DNA of 64,000 nucleotides from an uncultured archaeon. Its GTDB lineage: Archaea; Altiarchaeota; Altiarchaeia; JAFGQM01. The notes beneath the pieces are model-generated. The model saw only the letters and a program-made list of their open reading frames with translations, did no database searches and was not told the DNA's origin. Location of the stretch: the NCBI GenBank assembly GCA_964619365.1, contig CAZUDQ010000004.1, positions 3,963-67,962 of the forward strand, given 5' to 3'. This document shows, piece after piece, positions 1 through 27,160 of the stretch. Each line of letters starts with the position of its first letter. The stretch's first letter is position 1. A program made the translations under genes and the position numbers.

Positions 1-99
1 TTTGGTGTGATAATCGTTTCGACCTCAAGTGGTCTTATGACTCACTACGATGCTAAAAAAGGAAACTTAGGCGGCAGACTAATAGCCTACATATATTAA
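1..99 (+). CDS. rps8: 30S ribosomal protein uS8, C-terminal part (5' end outside window)
   Basis: Frame 1 reads [32 protein letters not shown], the typical uS8 C-terminus, and lies directly upstream of uL6. Confidence 0.93.
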
Positions 100-21939: not shown

Positions 21940-23613
21940 CTATTCGTGGGCAAAATAGCAGACGACATTGCCGTCTTCAGCGCTTTTTACACGGCAAAAG
22001 CCAAAGCGCACAAACTGTATCATATCGCCATGTTCTAAGTGTCGACAGTCTTTTTCACAGAAGCCTGCGACTTTTCCGTCAGGCCCAAGCACCTCACATC
22101 CAAGCGAGTCCTCGGGAAGCCACTGGAGTATCGGGACTTTTGTGTTTTTCTCTTCAAGGTAGCGTGCCATAAGCGGACGCACTTCATCTATTTGAATGTT
22201 ACAGAAGTTCTTTAGACGCAAGACATCCCCCTTTTTAAGGTTTTTGGTATCGTCTTTTGCCACTAGTAACCTGGTCATGCCTTCAGAATCACGTTTGATT
22301 TCAATATCACGGAAGCCCCGCTGCGGGTAGTTTGGATGAAGCGGTATTTTTATGACATCAGCATCCGAGGGCACACCCTTTATCCAAACCTCAACAGGCT
22401 TAGGCACAAAGAAATAGCGGTTTGCCCTATCCTCGATTAATTTTCTGTTTTCAGCATAGAGATTCTGCCACTCAAATTTTGAGTCGGTGTCCCCAATACC
22501 GATTGCCTTCATGACACTCCGTATTGCTTCAGGTTCAATTCCCCTTCTTTTAAGCGCTCTAAGCGTTCCGAGATGAGGGTCCGCCCAGCTGGAGTATTCA
22601 CCGCTGTCAATACCCTTTTTCATGGCAGAAGTCGAAAGATTGACTCCTTCAATTGAAAGAAGTCCATTGTGTATGAATTCAGGAGGCTTCCAAGCAAAAT
22701 AATCATAGATGTAAAGTTGTCTTTGGGTGTTTATTATGTGGTCCTTTCCACGCAGGACATGAGTCAGCCCTGAGAGATAATCATCAATTGCAACAGAAAA
22801 ACTCATTAAAGGGTAAACGTCCCAGTCGCTTCCTGTTAATGGGTGCCTGTCTGTTGAGACCCTCATTATTGGAAAATCACGCATAGCCGGGTTCTTGTGC
22901 GCCATATCAGTTTTAAGATTAAGGACAAGGTTTGTGTCTCCCTCAATCATTTTATTCCAGCGCGAAATGTTCTCTTCAATACTATTGCCCCTACACGGAC
23001 AGTTCTTTTTTGCGTCCTTAAAAGCTCTGAACTTTTCTTGCCCGCAGGAACAGGAATAAGCATGACCTTCCTTTATCAATCTAAGGGCGAAGTCGCGGTA
23101 GACAGCAAGCCTCCTGCTTTGAGTGATGATTTCATCAATCTCAACGCCAAGCCATTTTAAATCCTCCTCAATCATACGATATGCGTCCTTTTCAACGCGC
23201 TTTGGGTCGGTATCCTCAATTCTTAAAATAAGCTTTCCACCATACTTTTTCTTGTATTCATCATTAAGGACTGCGGTTCTTGCGTGGCCTATGTGAAGCG
23301 GTCCTGATGGATTTGGGGCAAAGCGCAAGACTACTTCACCGTTTACATTAGGGAGCTCCGTAATCCTACCTCTTTTCTTTTCTTTTTCTTCCGGCGTTCC
23401 GTAATGAGCGAGTTCTTTTTCGACTTCCTCTTTTGATAATGAATTTACTTCGGCAATCACGTCCTTAACAGCCTTTATAGCCTTACTTGTATCCTTCCTA
23501 TACTCTGGAAACTCCCCCAAAAGTTTTCCAAGGACGTTTTTTTCTTGCGCCGAGCCGTAGCTTGCCGCATTCTCGACTGCGTATTTTTTTGCTATCTTGT
23601 AGAGGTCGTCCAT
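21940..23613 (-). CDS. gltX: Glutamyl-tRNA synthetase (archaeal type)
   Basis: RFAPNPSGPLHIGH, LRIEDTDP, THVLRGKDH, QFVRFGF. Confidence 0.97.
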   Translation of the reverse strand: MDDLYKIAKKYAVENAASYGSAQEKNVLGKLLGEFPEYRKDTSKAIKAVKDVIAEVNSLSKEEVEKELAHYGTPEEKEKKRGRITELPNVNGEVVLRFAPNPSGPLHIGHARTAVLNDEYKKKYGGKLILRIEDTDPKRVEKDAYRMIEEDLKWLGVEIDEIITQSRRLAVYRDFALRLIKEGHAYSCSCGQEKFRAFKDAKKNCPCRGNSIEENISRWNKMIEGDTNLVLNLKTDMAHKNPAMRDFPIMRVSTDRHPLTGSDWDVYPLMSFSVAIDDYLSGLTHVLRGKDHIINTQRQLYIYDYFAWKPPEFIHNGLLSIEGVNLSTSAMKKGIDSGEYSSWADPHLGTLRALKRRGIEPEAIRSVMKAIGIGDTDSKFEWQNLYAENRKLIEDRANRYFFVPKPVEVWIKGVPSDADVIKIPLHPNYPQRGFRDIEIKRDSEGMTRLLVAKDDTKNLKKGDVLRLKNFCNIQIDEVRPLMARYLEEKNTKVPILQWLPEDSLGCEVLGPDGKVAGFCEKDCRHLEHGDMIQFVRFGFCRVKSAEDGNVVCYFAHE

Positions 23614-23614
23614 T

Positions 23615-26527
23615 TTATTTTGAGTAAGATATGAAAATCTGTGCTCCTTCTATTTCAGTTTTGCTCTTTAAATCCTTTGGGTCGATTTTATCAAGTTCTA
23701 TTGCACTCGCGCCTGTTGCCTGTGCTATCTCAGTTTCTCTTTTCTTTATTAGTTTAAGCAGTTTCTCATCTCCGTCAAACCTAAGAACGATTTTTTCTGA
23801 AACATCAAGCCCCTCCTTTTTGCGCATGACTTGTATCTGCCTTAACAAGTCGCGGAGCATACCCTCTTGTATCGCCTCAGGACTCCTGATTTTTGATATC
23901 ATGATGCGCCCGCTTGAGAACTCCTTTATCACCGGGGCGTTTGGTTCCTTGTTTGAGAATGCGACCTCATTTACATTTGCCATATTTTCAATTACTTCCC
24001 TTACCGTCTCTAGCTTCTCTTTCGTGTCAACTGTAAGTGCATCAAGCGGCCAGCGCAGTTTGATTCCAGCTTCATCGCGCGCGGCATTACTTGCCTCGAC
24101 GATTTCTTTTGCAAATTGCATCTCGCGCTCAAGTGAAGCATCAATCTCAAAGTTGATTTCCGGCCAGCCTGATAAGAAAACAGAGTCGCCCCCCTCTAAG
24201 TCGCGGTGTATGTATTCAGCAATAAACGGCGCAAAAGGTGCAATCATGCGCGCAGTCTTTGCTATAGCATACCACAATGTCGCAATTGCTGCGTCTTTGT
24301 CTTCTCCAGTGGCTGAGACCCAGGTCCTGTCCCTTATTATCTTGATATACCAGCGGGACAAGTCGTTTAATATGAAGTCTTCAATAGCTTTTGAGGCGCC
24401 GAATGGAAGGCAGGCATCAAACCCATCTTTTACCAATTTCTCAACAGAAGCCAGTCTTGATAAAATCCACTTGTCCTCTGGTTTAAGGAAGTCCCGTAAT
24501 CCTTCTATATCGACTACGCCCGCTTCAGAATAAGTCTTTGCAAATTGGTAGCAGTTCCAAAGGGTGTTCATAAGCCGGAAAGTTATCTTGACATCGTCTG
24601 CGTTGAATTTTAATTTTTCCCAAACTTCTGATTCTGAAACAAGGTAGAATCTTGTGATATCCGCGCCATACTTTTCCATGACCTCGTAAGGCGAAGTGAC
24701 GTTGTTTAAGGACTTACTCATCTTGTCCCCTTTCTTATCAAGCACCCATTCGTTCATGAGGATTGTCTTAAACGGAGTTTTCCCAAACATGATTATGCCT
24801 TCAAGCATAAGGGTGTAAAACCATCCCCTAGTTTGGTCAAGACCTTCTGTTATAAAGTCCATTGGGAAGAACTTGGTAAAAGGTTCTTTTTCCTTAGGAT
24901 AATTCATCCCGGCCCAAGTTGCAGCACCAGATTCAAACCAGATATCTGTTATATCAGGTACCCGAGTCATTTCTTTTTGGCAATCAGGACAGCTAAGTTT
25001 TATCTTATTGGTATAAGGAACATGTAAATCTGGCTCACCCTCAGGCATCTCTATTGCCTTTTCCTTTAACTCTTCAAAGGAACCGATTACTTCACGCGCG
25101 CCGCAGGAACATTCCCAAATTGGGAGAGGTATCCCCCAAAACCTCTGGCGGGATATGCACCAGTCGCGTGCTTCTTTTATCCAATTGGAAAAGCGCTTTT
25201 CACCTGCCCAGTCCGGATTCCATGTAACTTTCTTGTTCTCAGAAATCATCAAATCTTTGACTTTTCCGACATTGATGAACCACTGGGGCGAGGCTCGTGT
25301 AATAATTGGGGTCTTGCAGCGCCAGCAATGCGCGCAGCGGTGCGTTATCTTTTGCTTTCCGGCAATGGCACCGCGATTTTCTAATTCTTCGATTACAATA
25401 GGATTTGCTTTCTTGACATAAACGCCCTCAAGCTTCCCGCCTTCCTTTGTGTAACATCCGTTCTCTCCAACTGGCGAAAATGGCGGAAGACCGTATTTCA
25501 TACCAACAGAATAATCGTCAAGCCCGTGGCCGGGTGCCGTGTGTACACAACCCGTCCCGTCTTCAAGAGTTACAAAATCCCCCAGAAGGATACTGTGTGT
25601 GGCAGGAGCCTCTTTTTCAATCTCCTTATTTTCAGGAATCCAGTCAGGAAGTATAAACTCGTATCCTACCCCCTCAAGCTCTTTTCCTTGCTTTATACTG
25701 TCTTCAAGAATCTCATAATCCCCATCTTCTATCTCACAAGCTTCCATTACCTGCGGGACTAACTCCTTTGCCATAAGCCACTTTTCATCGCGCGGAACTG
25801 AGACCAGACAATATTCATATTTTGGATTAAGTGTAACACCAAGGTTTGAAGGAAGCGTCCAAGGTGTTGTTGTCCAGATTAGGACAAATTCACCAGGCCT
25901 CTCCTTAAGCGGGAACTTGACATAAACAGAGTCATCAGTCACGTCACGGTATTCGTCTGTTGCCTCGTAGCCGGCAAGCGCCGTCTGGCAGCGCGGACAC
26001 CAGGCTGTTGATGCCTTGCCCTTGTAAAGAAGACCATCCTCCTCACATTTCTTGAAAAACGCCCAGGACGAACTTATATAACTGTTATCAAGAGTCTTAT
26101 AAGGATGCTCAAAATCCCAGTGCATGCCAAAACGTTTGTAGAACTCAGTAAATACGTCAACTGTTTCAAGTGCGCGGGTACGGCAGATGTCAATAAATTT
26201 TTCTGCGCCATAATCCCAGATATCTTCTTTTCGCTTAAGACCAAGCTCCTCTTCTACCTTGATTTCAATTGGAAGTCCATGGCAGTCATAACCCGGCTGA
26301 AGATTTACGTCTTTTCCTAGCATCACCTGATACTTTAAAATCGGGTCGCGAATAGCGCGCGTCCTTGCGTGGCCCATATGGGGGTTCCCATTCATATATG
26401 GAGGTCCGTCTAAGAAGAAGAACTTCTCACCTGCTTCATTTGCTTTTTTTATCTTCTCAAAAAGCCCTAATTTATCCCAGTACTCCGAAATCTCCTTTTC
26501 GATTTCAAGGGGTCTAAACGGTTCCAC
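23615..26527 (-). CDS. ileS: Isoleucyl-tRNA synthetase (GTG start)
   Basis: DGPPYMNGNPHMGH, GYDCHGLPIE, WTTTPWTLPSN, GTGCVHTAPGHG, DWCISRQRFWG, EGLDQTRGWF, KMSKS. Confidence 0.97.
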   Translation of the reverse strand: MEPFRPLEIEKEISEYWDKLGLFEKIKKANEAGEKFFFLDGPPYMNGNPHMGHARTRAIRDPILKYQVMLGKDVNLQPGYDCHGLPIEIKVEEELGLKRKEDIWDYGAEKFIDICRTRALETVDVFTEFYKRFGMHWDFEHPYKTLDNSYISSSWAFFKKCEEDGLLYKGKASTAWCPRCQTALAGYEATDEYRDVTDDSVYVKFPLKERPGEFVLIWTTTPWTLPSNLGVTLNPKYEYCLVSVPRDEKWLMAKELVPQVMEACEIEDGDYEILEDSIKQGKELEGVGYEFILPDWIPENKEIEKEAPATHSILLGDFVTLEDGTGCVHTAPGHGLDDYSVGMKYGLPPFSPVGENGCYTKEGGKLEGVYVKKANPIVIEELENRGAIAGKQKITHRCAHCWRCKTPIITRASPQWFINVGKVKDLMISENKKVTWNPDWAGEKRFSNWIKEARDWCISRQRFWGIPLPIWECSCGAREVIGSFEELKEKAIEMPEGEPDLHVPYTNKIKLSCPDCQKEMTRVPDITDIWFESGAATWAGMNYPKEKEPFTKFFPMDFITEGLDQTRGWFYTLMLEGIIMFGKTPFKTILMNEWVLDKKGDKMSKSLNNVTSPYEVMEKYGADITRFYLVSESEVWEKLKFNADDVKITFRLMNTLWNCYQFAKTYSEAGVVDIEGLRDFLKPEDKWILSRLASVEKLVKDGFDACLPFGASKAIEDFILNDLSRWYIKIIRDRTWVSATGEDKDAAIATLWYAIAKTARMIAPFAPFIAEYIHRDLEGGDSVFLSGWPEINFEIDASLEREMQFAKEIVEASNAARDEAGIKLRWPLDALTVDTKEKLETVREVIENMANVNEVAFSNKEPNAPVIKEFSSGRIMISKIRSPEAIQEGMLRDLLRQIQVMRKKEGLDVSEKIVLRFDGDEKLLKLIKKRETEIAQATGASAIELDKIDPKDLKSKTEIEGAQIFISYSK

Positions 26528-26652
26528 GATTCGTTCCTTAGATATTCTTTAGATAATAGAGAATCTTAAGGGTTATTTTTGGCGATTATTGGATAAAAGT
26601 TAAAATAGCAAGGTAGGGGTGCTCTTATCTAGTGCAATAGCTACCCCCTTTT

Positions 26653-26864
26653 AAAAATAAGATGGGCCTAATGGGATGTTAAGGTGGATGCAACGCTATG
26701 GCATATGACCTTAACAGAGATTAGGACCATCGGGCATAAGCTAAGAAAAAAGAAGATGAGCCTAATGGGACCTTGAGGTGGATGCATTGCCAATACCCAT
26801 GACCTTAACAGATATTAGGGCCATTGCTACTAAGGGTGTAAAAAATAAGATGGGCCTAATGGGA
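26653..26864 (-). repeat. Tandem 94-bp-period repeats sharing the tRNA-Ile 3' end and T-tract; two 69-nt hairpin units (26662-26730, 26756-26824)
   Basis: AAAAATAAGATGGGCCTAATGGGA-like segment at 26653, 26746 and 26840; the ATG core recurs at 26662, 26756 and 26850. Confidence 0.92.
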
Positions 26865-26995
26865 TTTGAACCCATGACATCTGGCTAGCTCAGAGCTTTC
26901 GACTCCATTCTTGGGAATCTCAAAACAGACGCGTGGATTTACCACACGCATGCTCGTATAAGACCAGCGCTCTAACCAAGCTGAGCTATAGGCCC
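26851..26995 (-). tRNA. tRNA-Ile (anticodon TAT) with a 70-nt intron at 37/38 (intron 26887-26956)
   Basis: GGGCCTA/TAGGCCC acceptor, GCTC/GAGC D-stem, CTGGT-CT TAT A^..^A-GCCAG, ATGGG TTCAAAT CCCAT, A73; BHB motif with GAGC/GCTC stem, CTTA/TGAG central helix and two 3-nt bulges. Confidence 0.93.
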
Positions 26996-27013
26996 ACAAA
27001 AATGCCTAATATC

Positions 27014-27160
27014 AAAAAGTAAGATTTTCTTATTTTCCAACGTTTGCTTATCTTGGGTTGCATAGCAACCCGACCATACTCCTCCGGTATCTCGGAGAAA
27101 GTAAGATTTTCTTACTTTTTGTTTTGCTCATCCCTCGGATATCCGAGGCTTCTTATTTTG
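27014..27160. repeat. Cluster of five palindromes/inverted repeats between tRNA-Ile and the COG1361/ABC operon
   Basis: AAAGTAAGA-TTT-TCTTA(T/C)TTT twice (27016, 27098), GGGTTGC-ATA-GCAACCC (27055), CTCCG-GTATCT-CGGAG (27082), CCTCGGATATCCGAGG (27133). Confidence 0.85.

What the first reader, a model, noticed from the sequence alone, without database searches (positions are those of the whole stretch)
26653..26864. Array of tRNA-Ile-derived hairpin units (acceptor-stem mimics) between the tRNA-Ile gene and ileS
Seen: downstream of tRNA-Ile on the minus strand are two units with an exact 94-bp period. Each ends with the tRNA's own 3' sequence and T-tract (TCCCATTAGGC(C/T)CATCTT(A/C)TTTTT). Each 69-nt unit starts with ATGG(C/T)CCTAAT, which resembles the tRNA 5' end GGGCCTA, so the unit folds back to rebuild an Ile-like acceptor stem with discriminator A. 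Both copies carry a mismatch at the same position, equivalent to 3:70. The distal unit also has a perfect 9-bp inner stem (TGTTAAGGT/ACCTTAACA). The flanks are conserved while the central 13 nt differ. The proximal unit keeps GTCATGGGT from the tRNA variable/T arm. ileS starts about 130 bp further on, on the same strand. A 12-nt inverted fragment of the unit (ATGCCTAATATC, 27002-27013) also lies just upstream of the tRNA. Inference: these could be (a) co-transcribed tRNA-like minihelix RNAs released by RNase P/Z, (b) tRNA-mimic leader elements through which IleRS regulates its own mRNA, by analogy with E. coli thrS, or (c) scars of repeated integration at the tRNA 3' end. I know of no described element with this layout in archaea.
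Basis: partly seen in the sequence, partly recalled or inferred. Interest (0 to 1): 0.8.

Follow-up and report, generated by a model that had tools for sequence, protein, structure and literature searches.

The report
Archaeal tRNA-Ile-linked hairpin repeats
Just downstream of an intron-containing tRNA-Ile(UAU) gene, an uncultivated archaeon carries two tandem copies of a tRNA-derived hairpin that re-uses the tRNA's own 3' end; related archaea keep the same hairpin through compensatory mutations, so it is probably a real structured RNA attached to the tRNA transcript, not a leader of the neighbouring isoleucyl-tRNA synthetase gene.

Summary
On the minus strand, tRNA-Ile(UAU) (26995-26851, 70-nt intron) is followed by two 94-nt-period units. 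Each ends in a copy of the tRNA's last 14 nt plus its T-rich trailer, and each starts with the complement of that end. An ENA contig carries the identical array.

Relatives with only 66-69% IleRS identity (L006, L007, L009, L015; truncated in L014) carry the same element 24-26 nt after their tRNA-Ile(UAU). Across six copies, 94.7% of cells pair and 9 of 19 pairs show double compensatory changes. Where the tRNA's T-stem changed (L015), both arms of the unit changed with it.

The distal window copy folds well (z -5.05). The proximal copy is decaying (z +1.15).

The conserved ileS promoter lies downstream of the unit and stays with ileS when toxin-antitoxin cargo is inserted, so the IleRS-leader idea is not supported. 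Simple integration scars do not explain the covariation.

The closest known analogues are the E. coli tRNA-linked repeats, which I show also fold back on their tRNA-derived 3' end, and tRNA-like "t-elements" cut by RNase P and tRNase Z.

Most likely this is a structured 3' spacer RNA read through from the tRNA and delimited by tRNA end-processing and termination signals. Its function is inferred, not shown. Several relatives have lost it.

The parts
26851..26995 (-). tRNA-Ile(UAU) gene. 5' exon 26995-26957, 70-nt intron 26956-26887 at position 37/38, 3' exon 26886-26851. No encoded CCA.
   Evidence: Rfam tRNA 58.5 bits. The spliced sequence is called tRNA-Ile(tat), 75 nt. Orthologues are called Ile(tat) with 39-65-nt introns.
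26825..26850 (-). tRNA trailer with a T6 tract (TCTTATTTTTT) plus spacer 1 (ACACCCTTAGTAGCA); 26 nt in total.
   Evidence: Read from the sequence. The tRNA-to-unit spacing is 24-26 nt in all lineages.
26756..26824 (-). Proximal unit U1 (69 nt). The outer acceptor-like stem is kept, with a G2.U71 wobble and a C3.C70 mismatch. The inner stem is degraded (TGTTAAGGT / ACCTCAAGG). This looks like a decaying copy.
   Evidence: Covariance-model (CM) hit of 74.7 bits. RNAfold z-score +1.15. It does not form the hairpin when folded in context.
26731..26755 (-). U1 trailer (T6 tract) plus spacer 2, CTTAGCTTATGCCCG. This is the conserved spacer type, found directly behind the tRNA in L007, L009 and L014.
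26662..26730 (-). Distal unit U2 (69 nt). It has an 11-bp outer stem (-2..9 with 64..74) carrying a U3.C70 mismatch, a 3x4 internal loop, a perfect 9-bp inner stem TGTTAAGGT/ACCTTAACA, and a small apical stem. This is the intact copy.
   Evidence: CM hit of 82.8 bits. RNAfold -22.1 kcal/mol, z-score -5.05. It forms the same hairpin in the 206-nt context fold.
26653..26661 (-). U2 trailer, CTTATTTTT (T5 tract). Counting the T at position 74 (26662, the last base of U2), the 10-nt trailer TCTTATTTTT is identical to the first 10 nt of the tRNA's own trailer.
26591..26599 (-). CTTTTATCC, the putative TATA box of the conserved ileS core promoter. It lies downstream of the array.
   Evidence: Alignment by eye of the ileS upstream regions of 13 loci. 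This is inferred, not experimentally mapped.
23615..26527 (-). ileS (IleRS, 970 aa, GTG start). It is not part of the element but is its conserved neighbour.
   Evidence: The N-terminus aligns with the homologues' MEPF....

Best explanation
The units are an archaeal counterpart of bacterial tRNA-linked repeats. They form a tRNA-Ile(UAU)-derived, structurally constrained stem-loop in the 3' external spacer of the tRNA gene.

Anatomy. Each unit starts with a strand complementary to the tRNA's 3' acceptor strand. It ends with an exact copy of the tRNA's last 14 nt, discriminator A73 and T-rich trailer. It therefore folds into an acceptor-like helix stacked on a 9-10-bp inner helix.

Expression (inferred). 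The unit has no room for a promoter of its own, since only 24-26 nt separate it from the tRNA. The most likely route is read-through from the tRNA promoter, which makes the unit part of the pre-tRNA.

Processing (inferred). By copying the tRNA's 3' processing and termination context, the unit provides a second tRNase Z-type and oligo-T end. It may also provide an RNase P-type 5' end. These would close the tRNA transcription unit upstream of the separately promoted ileS gene and release a roughly 65-70-nt hairpin RNA.

The window's two-unit array. It is a tandem expansion by slippage or unequal crossing-over on the repeated 24-nt tRNA end. The distal copy is intact and the proximal copy is decaying.

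Status of each step. Shown: reality of the array, homology across lineages, selection for pairing, concerted evolution with the tRNA end, linkage to the tRNA rather than to ileS. Inferred: transcription, processing and any role of the released RNA.
For: 1. The array is real and appears in a second assembly.

2. The same element sits 24-26 nt behind tRNA-Ile(UAU) in L006, L007, L009 and L015, and truncated in L014. Their IleRS is 66-69% identical to the window's.

3. Covariation across six copies:
- 94.7% of cells paired, against 83.9% in shuffles and 22-41% in slid controls.
- 9 of 19 pairs changed on both sides (0 of 500 shuffles reach this).
- The inner stem reads TGTTAAGGT/ACCTTAACA (window), TGTCAAAGT/ACTTTGACA (L007), CGACAAGGT/ACCTTGTCG (L009) and CTTCAAGGA/TCCTCGAAG (L006).

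4. In L015 the tRNA T-stem base 64 is G instead of A. The unit's 3' copy carries the same G, and the unit's 5' arm carries the compensating C.

5. Trailers differ between lineages but match within each genome. Examples are window TCTTATTTTT, L006 CCTTACTGTTTCT and L015 CTTC(T/C)TTTTTC. This points to concerted evolution or a shared signal.

6. Folding z-scores are -5.05, -6.14, -5.52 and -6.57 for window U2, L006, L007 and L009.

7. In L007, L009 and L014 the tRNA trailer has no T-tract (L006 has only TTT), while a T6 follows the unit in L009. Transcription there should run from the tRNA into the unit.

8. The ileS core promoter is conserved downstream of the unit or cargo.

9. Precedents:
- E. 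coli TLRs share the layout: the tRNA 3' end repeated at each unit's end, 1-5 units per locus, transcribed by terminator read-through.
- The tyrV-linked RttR also folds back on its tRNA-derived 3' end.
- Haloferax and plant-mitochondrial t-elements and acceptor-like stem-loops are RNase P / tRNase Z signals.
Against: - No expression data exist, so transcription and cleavage are untested.
- In the window and in L015 a T6 tract directly follows the tRNA. It should terminate most archaeal transcription before the unit.
- The unit lacks a T-loop/T-arm. U(-1) pairs with A73 and there is a 3:70 mismatch. It is therefore not an obvious RNase P or tRNase Z substrate.
- The element is dispensable. It is absent in L017 and L025 inside the same clade, truncated in L014, and one window copy is decaying.
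- Only six copies from five lineages support the covariation.
- G.U versus A.C counts do not tell which strand is functional.
- The two unit sub-types do not follow the IleRS tree. L007 resembles the window and L009, while L006 resembles L015.
Confidence: 0.5

Rival explanations
1. Trans-acting tRNA-mimic RNA. The released acceptor-arm mimic, possibly with CCA added, acts as a decoy or ligand. Its partner would be a protein that recognises the tRNA-Ile acceptor end, such as IleRS, the CCA-adding enzyme, a modification enzyme or a tRNA-directed toxin. This would couple tRNA-Ile(UAU) output to another process.
For: - The unpaired TCCC and the whole 14-nt tRNA end are strictly kept in every copy, beyond what pairing requires.
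- The Y3.C70 mismatch is conserved in five of six copies.
- tRNA-Ile(UAU) and ileS are persistent neighbours.
- PIN and ParE toxin cassettes recur next to the element.
Against: - The sequence identity is equally explained by gene conversion with the tRNA.
- From general knowledge, IleRS recognition depends heavily on the anticodon, which the unit lacks.
- The element has been lost repeatedly.
- There is no binding or expression evidence.
Confidence: 0.15
2. Neutral scars of mobile-element integration at the tRNA 3' end. The repeated tRNA ends would be att-site duplicates left after elements were deleted, later amplified by slippage, with no function.
For: - The tRNA-ileS spacer is an insertion hot spot. 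MazE-PIN, ParE and orphan ORFs sit there in L007, L009, L014, L018, L019 and L025.
- L012 retains only a tRNA 3'-exon remnant beside ileS, a typical att remnant.
- Distribution is patchy and copies are decaying.
Against: - Nine pairs carry double compensatory changes, and the fold is maintained over 66-69% IleRS divergence.
- The 5' arm compensates the T-stem change in L015.
- The cargo lies after the unit, not between the tRNA and the repeated end.
- No integrase was found in any cargo.
- The duplicated segment includes non-tRNA trailer sequence.
- No matching virus or plasmid sequence was found.
Confidence: 0.12
3. A DNA-level hairpin element. This would be a small palindromic, non-autonomous mobile or recombinogenic element, in the manner of MITEs, PATEs or attC sites. 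It would target the tRNA-Ile 3' end, and its stem would be maintained because a recombinase or transposase reads folded single-stranded DNA.
For: - The flanks are conserved, the centre is variable, and a mismatch is conserved in an imperfect palindrome.
- Tandem arrays occur in the window, and L009 carries a second copy of the spacer after its unit, with a possible remnant of a second unit.
- Unit sub-types do not follow the host tree.
- Small cargo cassettes sit adjacent.
Against: - There is only one locus per contig. The covariance model finds no other copy in the 64-kb window or in about 110 kb of related loci.
- No transposase or integrase lies nearby.
- The position and spacing behind the tRNA are constant.
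- The inner-stem sequences do not fit the integron attC R-box consensus as I recall it (judged by eye from the sequences).
Confidence: 0.1
4. A cis-regulatory tRNA-mimic leader through which IleRS controls its own mRNA, analogous to the E. coli thrS operator or to T-box logic.
For: - The unit lies between tRNA-Ile and ileS.
- It is directly upstream of ileS in the window, L006 and L015.
- In L017 the tRNA ends 15 nt before the ileS ATG, so co-transcription of the tRNA and ileS is possible in this clade.
Against: - The conserved ileS core promoter (TTTTTATC about 30 nt before the ATG) lies downstream of the unit. This predicts a short-leader mRNA that excludes it.
- After cargo insertion the unit stays with the tRNA, 0.8-2.6 kb from ileS, and still folds (L007, L009).
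- T5-T6 tracts separate the units from ileS in the window.
- The mimic is of the acceptor arm, not the anticodon arm.
- Lineages without the unit keep the same ileS promoter.
Confidence: 0.08

Closest known systems
E. coli tRNA-linked repeats (TLRs; e.g. the 178-bp tyrT/tyrV repeats with RttR, and rrA/rrB/rrF)
   Same: - They lie immediately downstream of a tRNA or rRNA gene on the same strand.
- Each unit ends with a copy of the last nucleotides of that gene plus its trailer.
- There are 1-5 tandem units per locus.
- They are located between successive terminators and transcribed by read-through.
- I verified that the tyrV-linked repeats (period 178, 3 copies) contain an internal segment, GGGGAAGGAT, complementary to their tRNA-derived 3' end. 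I also verified that RttR's MFE fold closes on that helix. This is the same fold-back principle as here.
   Different: - There is no sequence homology and the domain of life differs.
- The units are 94 nt, not 150-178 nt.
- The copied tRNA segment is 14 nt (no encoded CCA), against 18-19 nt.
- The fold-back here rebuilds the full 7-bp acceptor helix.
- Here the structure is backed by cross-lineage compensatory changes, which I did not test for TLRs.
- Per the paper read, TLRs as a class had no known function, and the three rrn-linked ones bound Hfq and CsrA. From general knowledge, those bacterial regulators are not expected in archaea.
t-elements (tRNA-like elements) of Haloferax volcanii and plant mitochondria
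   Same: - They are tRNA-derived or tRNA-like structures embedded in longer transcripts.
- They serve as cis-signals for RNase P and tRNase Z and so define RNA ends.
- Plant mitochondria also have simple 'acceptor-stem-like stem-loops' proposed to do the same.
   Different: - t-elements typically keep a T-arm (GGTTCRANYCC) and a cloverleaf-like fold. The units here lack the T-loop and the 5' T-stem strand (only U1 keeps GTCATGGGT).
- The units here are long interrupted hairpins with U(-1) paired to A73.
- Cleavage of these units has not been tested.
tRNA 3' external transcribed spacer RNAs (e.g. 3'ETS-leuZ of E. coli)
   Same: A functional RNA carried in the trailer of a tRNA transcript and released by processing.
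   Different: - 3'ETS-leuZ acts by base-pairing as an sRNA sponge.
- According to the account read, it is released by RNase E.
- No target complementarity was found or tested here.
Partial tRNA copies (att sites) left by integrative elements at archaeal tRNA genes
   Same: - A direct repeat of the tRNA 3' part lies downstream of the intact gene.
- The same tRNA gene is clearly used for insertions in this clade (L012 remnant).
   Different: - Only 70 nt lie between the repeats.
- There is no integrase.
- The copy extends into the trailer.
- The fold-back arm and inner stem evolve by compensatory change.

Membership tests
tRNA-linked repeats (TLR class, defined in E. coli) | The unit lies immediately downstream of a tRNA/rRNA gene, in the same orientation and within the same transcription unit. 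| tested here: met
   The units start 26 nt after A73 of tRNA-Ile on the same strand. The position is the same in five other lineages.
tRNA-linked repeats (TLR class, defined in E. coli) | The 3' end of each unit is identical to the 3' end of the upstream gene (18-19 bp in E. coli). | tested here: met
   14 nt of the tRNA plus about 10 nt of trailer are repeated three times with 0-1 mismatch in the 18-mer tested. The copied segment is shorter than in E. coli because CCA is not encoded.
tRNA-linked repeats (TLR class, defined in E. coli) | One to five tandem units per locus. | tested here: met
   There are two units in the window, one in L006, L007 and L015, and one plus a second spacer copy or remnant in L009.
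tRNA-linked repeats (TLR class, defined in E. coli) | [quoted passage not shown] | not testable with these tools
   Only indirect evidence exists. There is no T-tract after the tRNA in L007, L009 or L014, and a T6 follows the unit in L009.
tRNA-linked repeats (TLR class, defined in E. coli) | Sequence homology to the E. coli TLRs. | tested here: not met
   - The tyrV TLR sequence shares no similarity with the units beyond the architectural principle.
- Rfam gives no hit for the units.
- Membership is therefore of a descriptive class, not of a homologous family.
t-elements (RNase P / tRNase Z-processed tRNA-like structures) | An acceptor-stem-like helix ending in a discriminator position. | tested here: met
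   There is a 7-bp acceptor-equivalent helix extended to 11 bp, and A73 is kept in all copies. Five of six copies have a 3:70 mismatch.
t-elements (RNase P / tRNase Z-processed tRNA-like structures) | A T-arm / pseudouridine arm (GGTTCRANYCC) or a cloverleaf-like fold. | tested here: not met
   - There is no T-loop.
- Only the 3' T-stem strand (TCCCAT) is present, and its TCCC lies in an internal loop.
- Rfam's tRNA model does not hit the units.
- L009 alone has a three-armed, cloverleaf-like fold.
t-elements (RNase P / tRNase Z-processed tRNA-like structures) | Cleavage at its ends by RNase P and tRNase Z. | not testable with these tools
   This needs in vitro assays or RNA end mapping.
aaRS autoregulatory tRNA mimics (thrS-operator type) / T-box leaders | The element lies within the 5' UTR of the regulated synthetase mRNA. 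| tested here: not met
   The conserved ileS core promoter lies downstream of the unit. The unit separates from ileS when cargo is inserted. The promoter assignment rests on sequence conservation, not on TSS data.
aaRS autoregulatory tRNA mimics (thrS-operator type) / T-box leaders | Mimicry of the anticodon arm (thrS type), or a specifier/T-box that binds tRNA. | tested here: not met
   The unit copies acceptor-strand and T-stem 3' sequence only. There is no Rfam T-box hit.
att-site remnants of integrative elements at tRNA genes | A direct repeat of the tRNA 3' part that brackets an element carrying an integrase or its remnants. | tested here: not met
   Only 70 nt lie between the repeats. 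No integrase domain was found in any neighbouring cargo ORF. There are no phage, plasmid or IMG/VR matches.

The most novel reading that the evidence does not exclude
The hairpin is a dedicated acceptor-arm mimic of tRNA-Ile(UAU). It would be excised from the pre-tRNA and bind a tRNA-Ile-specific partner: IleRS, a wobble-U34/AUA-decoding modification enzyme, or a tRNA-directed toxin. It would thereby tune or protect the unusual UAU isoacceptor. This would be an archaeal tRNA-mimic regulatory RNA with no described counterpart. The conserved 3:70 mismatch would then act as an anti-determinant that prevents the mimic from being charged.
Probability: 0.1. Interest if true: 0.8.

Novelty: new variant of a known kind. 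Interest (0 to 1): 0.55.

Why it matters
tRNA-linked repeats have been known in E. coli since 1978, with little evidence that they are more than by-products. Here a TLR-like element occurs in an uncultivated archaeal clade whose nearest named relatives are Altiarchaeota MAGs. It is maintained by compensatory substitutions and evolves in concert with the tRNA's own 3' end. If confirmed, this would be the clearest comparative evidence that such elements are selected structured RNAs. It would also add a candidate new archaeal RNA family that has no Rfam match. Finally, it would give a concrete substrate for studying how archaeal RNase P, tRNase Z and oligo-T termination delimit a tRNA transcription unit placed next to its cognate synthetase gene.

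Tried and rejected
- An exact-pattern scan of the JGI metagenome contigs for the unit's 5' flank (CCTAATNTCTGTTAAGGTCAT) found nothing.
- A scan of IMG/VR for the repeated tRNA end gave three hits inside phage coding DNA. These are chance matches.
- A scan of IMG/VR for the tRNA T-arm/acceptor end gave only unrelated phage tRNA genes.
- blastn of the tRNA-plus-array region against the plasmid and phage collections gave no match.
- The GTDB genome scan with IleRS returned a single relative (L001), which has no tRNA upstream of ileS.
- The two other members of the window's 90%-identity IleRS cluster (P0121, P0122) could not be located on contigs. No very close relative other than the identical L005 could therefore be compared.
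- Rfam at permissive thresholds gave no family for the units.
- The other tRNA genes in the window (Ser, Leu) have no such repeats.
- The covariance model found no further copies in the window or in 13 related loci.
- Pfam on ten cargo ORFs found only MazE and PIN, and no integrase.
- By inspection I found no bulge-helix-bulge motif, no kink-turn, no integron attC-type boxes, and no primer-binding-site-like complementarity to a CCA-extended tRNA end.
- The 12-nt 'inverted fragment' upstream of the tRNA is not statistically distinguishable from chance.
Full report
**1. What is there**

Read on the minus strand, the region contains a tRNA gene at 26995-26851 (Rfam tRNA, 58.5 bits). Its exons, joined by removing a 70-nt intron at position 37/38, give a canonical 75-nt tRNA-Ile with anticodon UAU. 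ARAGORN's call of 'Gln(ctg)' on the unspliced gene is a mis-placed intron. The orthologous genes in relatives are called tRNA-Ile(tat).

The tRNA ends ...TCCCATTAGGCCCA (A73, no CCA) and is followed by TCTTATTTTTT. Downstream come two units with an exact 94-nt period:
- TRF reports period 94, 2.3 copies, 26653-26864.
- The 18-mer TCCCATTAGGCCCATCTT occurs three times at 94-nt spacing, against 0.01 expected.
- The 94-nt copies are 73% identical, and the tRNA-end segments 83-93%.

Each 69-nt unit (U1 26824-26756, U2 26730-26662) has four parts:
- It begins AUGG(C/U)CCUAAU. This is complementary to AUUAGGC(C/U)CAU at its own 3' end, except for a pyrimidine-C mismatch at the equivalent of pair 3:70.
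- It contains a 3x4 internal loop.
- It contains a 9-bp inner stem.
- It contains a small apical stem.

ileS starts at GTG 26527, aligned with the MEPF... start of its homologues. An ENA contig (L005) carries exactly the same sequence. The two units differ at 27% of positions, so an assembly artefact is unlikely.

Two details of the finding do not hold up:
- The proximal unit does not fold better than shuffled sequence (z +1.15, against -5.05 for the distal unit; context fold).
- The 12-nt 'inverted fragment' at 27002-27013 is within chance expectation.

**2. Relatives**

The window's IleRS has no close relatives apart from its own 90% cluster. The next proteins are 60-67% identical, and the only named one is from a Candidatus Altiarchaeota MAG. 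I recovered DNA around 13 orthologous ileS genes. In most of them, tRNA-Ile(UAU) with a long intron lies upstream of ileS, followed by a GluRS-type gene and L7Ae-S28e-L24e-NDK. The tRNA-ileS neighbourhood is therefore old.

Lineages that carry the unit behind the tRNA:
- L006: one unit, then ileS.
- L007: one unit, then a MazE-PIN cassette, then ileS.
- L009-L011: one enlarged unit with two extra arms that folds like a cloverleaf. It is followed by a second copy of the spacer and then 2.6 kb of cargo.
- L015/L016: one unit, then ileS.
- L014: a truncated unit.

Lineages without the unit:
- L017, where the tRNA ends 15 nt before the ileS ATG.
- L025, where the tRNA is followed by MazE-PIN.
- The more basal L018, L019 and L008.

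L012 keeps only a tRNA 3'-exon remnant beside ileS. L001 has no tRNA there.

In an IleRS neighbour-joining tree, all unit-bearing lineages fall in one inner clade. The spacing between A73 and the unit is 24-26 nt everywhere. The spacer motif CTTAGCTTAnGCnCG is shared by window spacer 2, L007, L009 and L014.

**3. Evidence for selection on the structure**

An alignment of the six complete copies (A1) was scored against the two-helix structure:
- 94.7% of cells are paired, against 83.9 +/- 2.1% in shuffles (0 of 500 reach the observed value).
- Slid controls give 22-41%.
- 9 of 19 pairs have changes on both sides.

The inner stem occurs as four different but complementary sequences: TGTTAAGGT/ACCTTAACA, TGTCAAAGT/ACTTTGACA, CGACAAGGT/ACCTTGTCG and CTTCAAGGA/TCCTCGAAG.

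L015 is the most informative case. The tRNA's own T-stem pair 50:64 changed to C:G. The unit's 3' copy carries the same G64, and the unit's 5' arm carries the compensating C.

Trailers differ between lineages but are the same behind the tRNA and behind the unit within a genome. The unit's 3' end therefore either is homogenised with the tRNA's or must present the same signal.

Folding z-scores are -5.05 (window U2), -6.14 (L006), -5.52 (L007), -6.57 (L009) and -2.08 (L015).

Caveats:
- There are only six copies from five lineages.
- G.U against A.C counts do not identify the functional strand.
- Two unit sub-types (window/L007/L009/L014 against L006/L015) do not follow the IleRS tree. This fits ancestral multi-unit arrays with differential loss, but it could also mean transfer.

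**4. What it is not**

*Not an ileS leader.* A TATA-like box (TTTTTATC) about 30 nt before the ATG, followed by a conserved CCCAAAATTA stretch, is shared by L006, L007, L009, L012, L013 and L014. More loosely it is also seen in L001, L015, L018, L019 and the window. It lies downstream of the unit and of any cargo. When cargo is inserted, the unit stays with the tRNA and the promoter stays with ileS.

*Not a dispersed repeat.* Covariance model R1 finds only these copies in the window and the related loci. The other tRNAs of the window have nothing similar.

*Not a known RNA family*.

*Not matched in phage, plasmid or IMG/VR data*.

*Simple att-site scars are unlikely.* The interior is 70 nt, no integrase is nearby, cargo sits after the unit rather than between the repeats, and scars would not evolve by compensatory change. 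Even so, the locus is clearly an insertion hot spot (TA cassettes, orphan ORFs, the L012 remnant).

**5. Most likely mechanism**

The unit is too close to the tRNA to have its own archaeal promoter. In L007, L009 and L014 the tRNA trailer has no T-tract (L006 has only TTT), and in L009 a T6 follows the unit. The unit is therefore best read as part of the tRNA primary transcript, a structured 3' external spacer.

Because it reproduces the acceptor 3' strand, the discriminator and the trailer of the tRNA, it offers a second tRNA-type 3' end (tRNase Z site and oligo-T). It may also offer an RNase P-type 5' end. These would close the tRNA transcription unit before the ileS promoter and release a 65-70-nt hairpin.

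These steps are inferred. Points against:
- A T6 lies directly after the tRNA in the window and in L015.
- There is no T-loop.
- U(-1) pairs with A73.
- There is a 3:70 mismatch.
- The element has been lost repeatedly.

The window's two-unit array is a tandem expansion on the repeated 24-nt end. U2, preceded by the conserved spacer type, is intact. U1 has lost inner-stem pairing.

**6. Comparison with known systems**

*E. coli tRNA-linked repeats.* The layout matches them. Their units end with 18-19 nt identical to the 3' end of the upstream tRNA or rRNA gene, and there are 1-5 units per locus. Some are transcribed by terminator read-through and processed. Function is largely unknown (PMC8144298). 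I fetched the tyrV locus. Its three 178-nt repeats contain GGGGAAGGAT, which is complementary to their tRNA-derived AUCCUUCCCC end. RttR's MFE fold closes on that helix, so the fold-back principle is shared. There is no sequence homology.

*t-elements and acceptor-like stem-loops.* The processing idea has precedents in tRNA-like t-elements cut by RNase P and tRNase Z in Haloferax (PMC4326828). It also has precedents in t-elements and acceptor-stem-like stem-loops at plant mitochondrial mRNA ends (PMC1920247). The units lack the T-arm that typifies t-elements.

**7. Verdict**

This is a real, conserved, tRNA-Ile(UAU)-derived hairpin element. It is an archaeal variant of the tRNA-linked-repeat theme with unusually good comparative support for its structure. 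It is linked to the tRNA, not to ileS. It is dispensable in some lineages, and its molecular role is unproven.

Noticed in passing
window 27013-27037 and 27097-27121 (also L007 3545-3600, L025 2600-2650): Two copies of the palindrome AAGTAAGA-AAA-TCTTACTT flank a 59-nt segment containing two hairpins (CTCCG..CGGAG and GGGTTGC-TAT-GCAACCC), just upstream of the tRNA-Ile promoter. The same GTAAGA/TCTTAC half-sites form the promoter/operator region of the MazE-PIN cassettes inserted behind the tRNA in L007 and L025. This may be an operator remnant or a small RNA.
   Followed up: partly
window 26851-26995 (-): This clade decodes AUA with a tRNA-Ile carrying a genomic UAU anticodon. From general knowledge, most archaea instead use a CAU anticodon modified to agmatidine. 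The gene has a 60-70-nt intron (39 nt in L018) at 37/38 with GC-rich hairpins recurring in several lineages (GCGCGC, CCCCGACGGGG). ARAGORN mis-calls several of these genes (Gln or Ala).
   Followed up: partly
L017 3846-4003: In one relative the tRNA-Ile 3' end lies only 15 nt before the ileS ATG, and the usual ileS promoter box is missing. There, ileS is probably co-transcribed with the tRNA and its 5' end made by tRNA 3' processing.
   Followed up: no
L012 2880-2940: A remnant consisting of the intron end plus the 3' exon of tRNA-Ile, with a different T-stem (CAAGGG/CCCTTC), lies next to the ileS promoter. An 88-aa ORF overlaps it and unannotated ORFs lie upstream. It looks like the distal att remnant of an integrated element.
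   Followed up: partly
L007 3599-4239; L009 1193-2953; L018 3494-3950; L025 2726-3375: The tRNA-Ile-ileS spacer repeatedly hosts small toxin-antitoxin cassettes (MazE/AbrB-PIN, ParE) and orphan ORFs without Pfam matches. It is a recurrent insertion hot spot.
   Followed up: partly
window 26534-26555: An 11-nt tandem duplication (TATCTAAAGAA / TATCTAAGGAA on the minus strand) lies between the putative ileS promoter and the GTG start. It lengthens the leader relative to the orthologues.
   Followed up: no
L009 255-379: The unit of this lineage has gained two extra hairpin arms between the inner stem and the TCCC. The result is a three-armed, cloverleaf-like fold (-61 kcal/mol, z -6.57). L014 carries a degenerate version of the same extension.
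   Followed up: partly
window 21940-26527 (-) and the related loci: The gene order ileS - GluRS-type synthetase (tRNA-synt_1c), then (in the relatives) L7Ae - S28e - L24e - NDK, is conserved across lineages with 56-85% IleRS identity.
   Followed up: no
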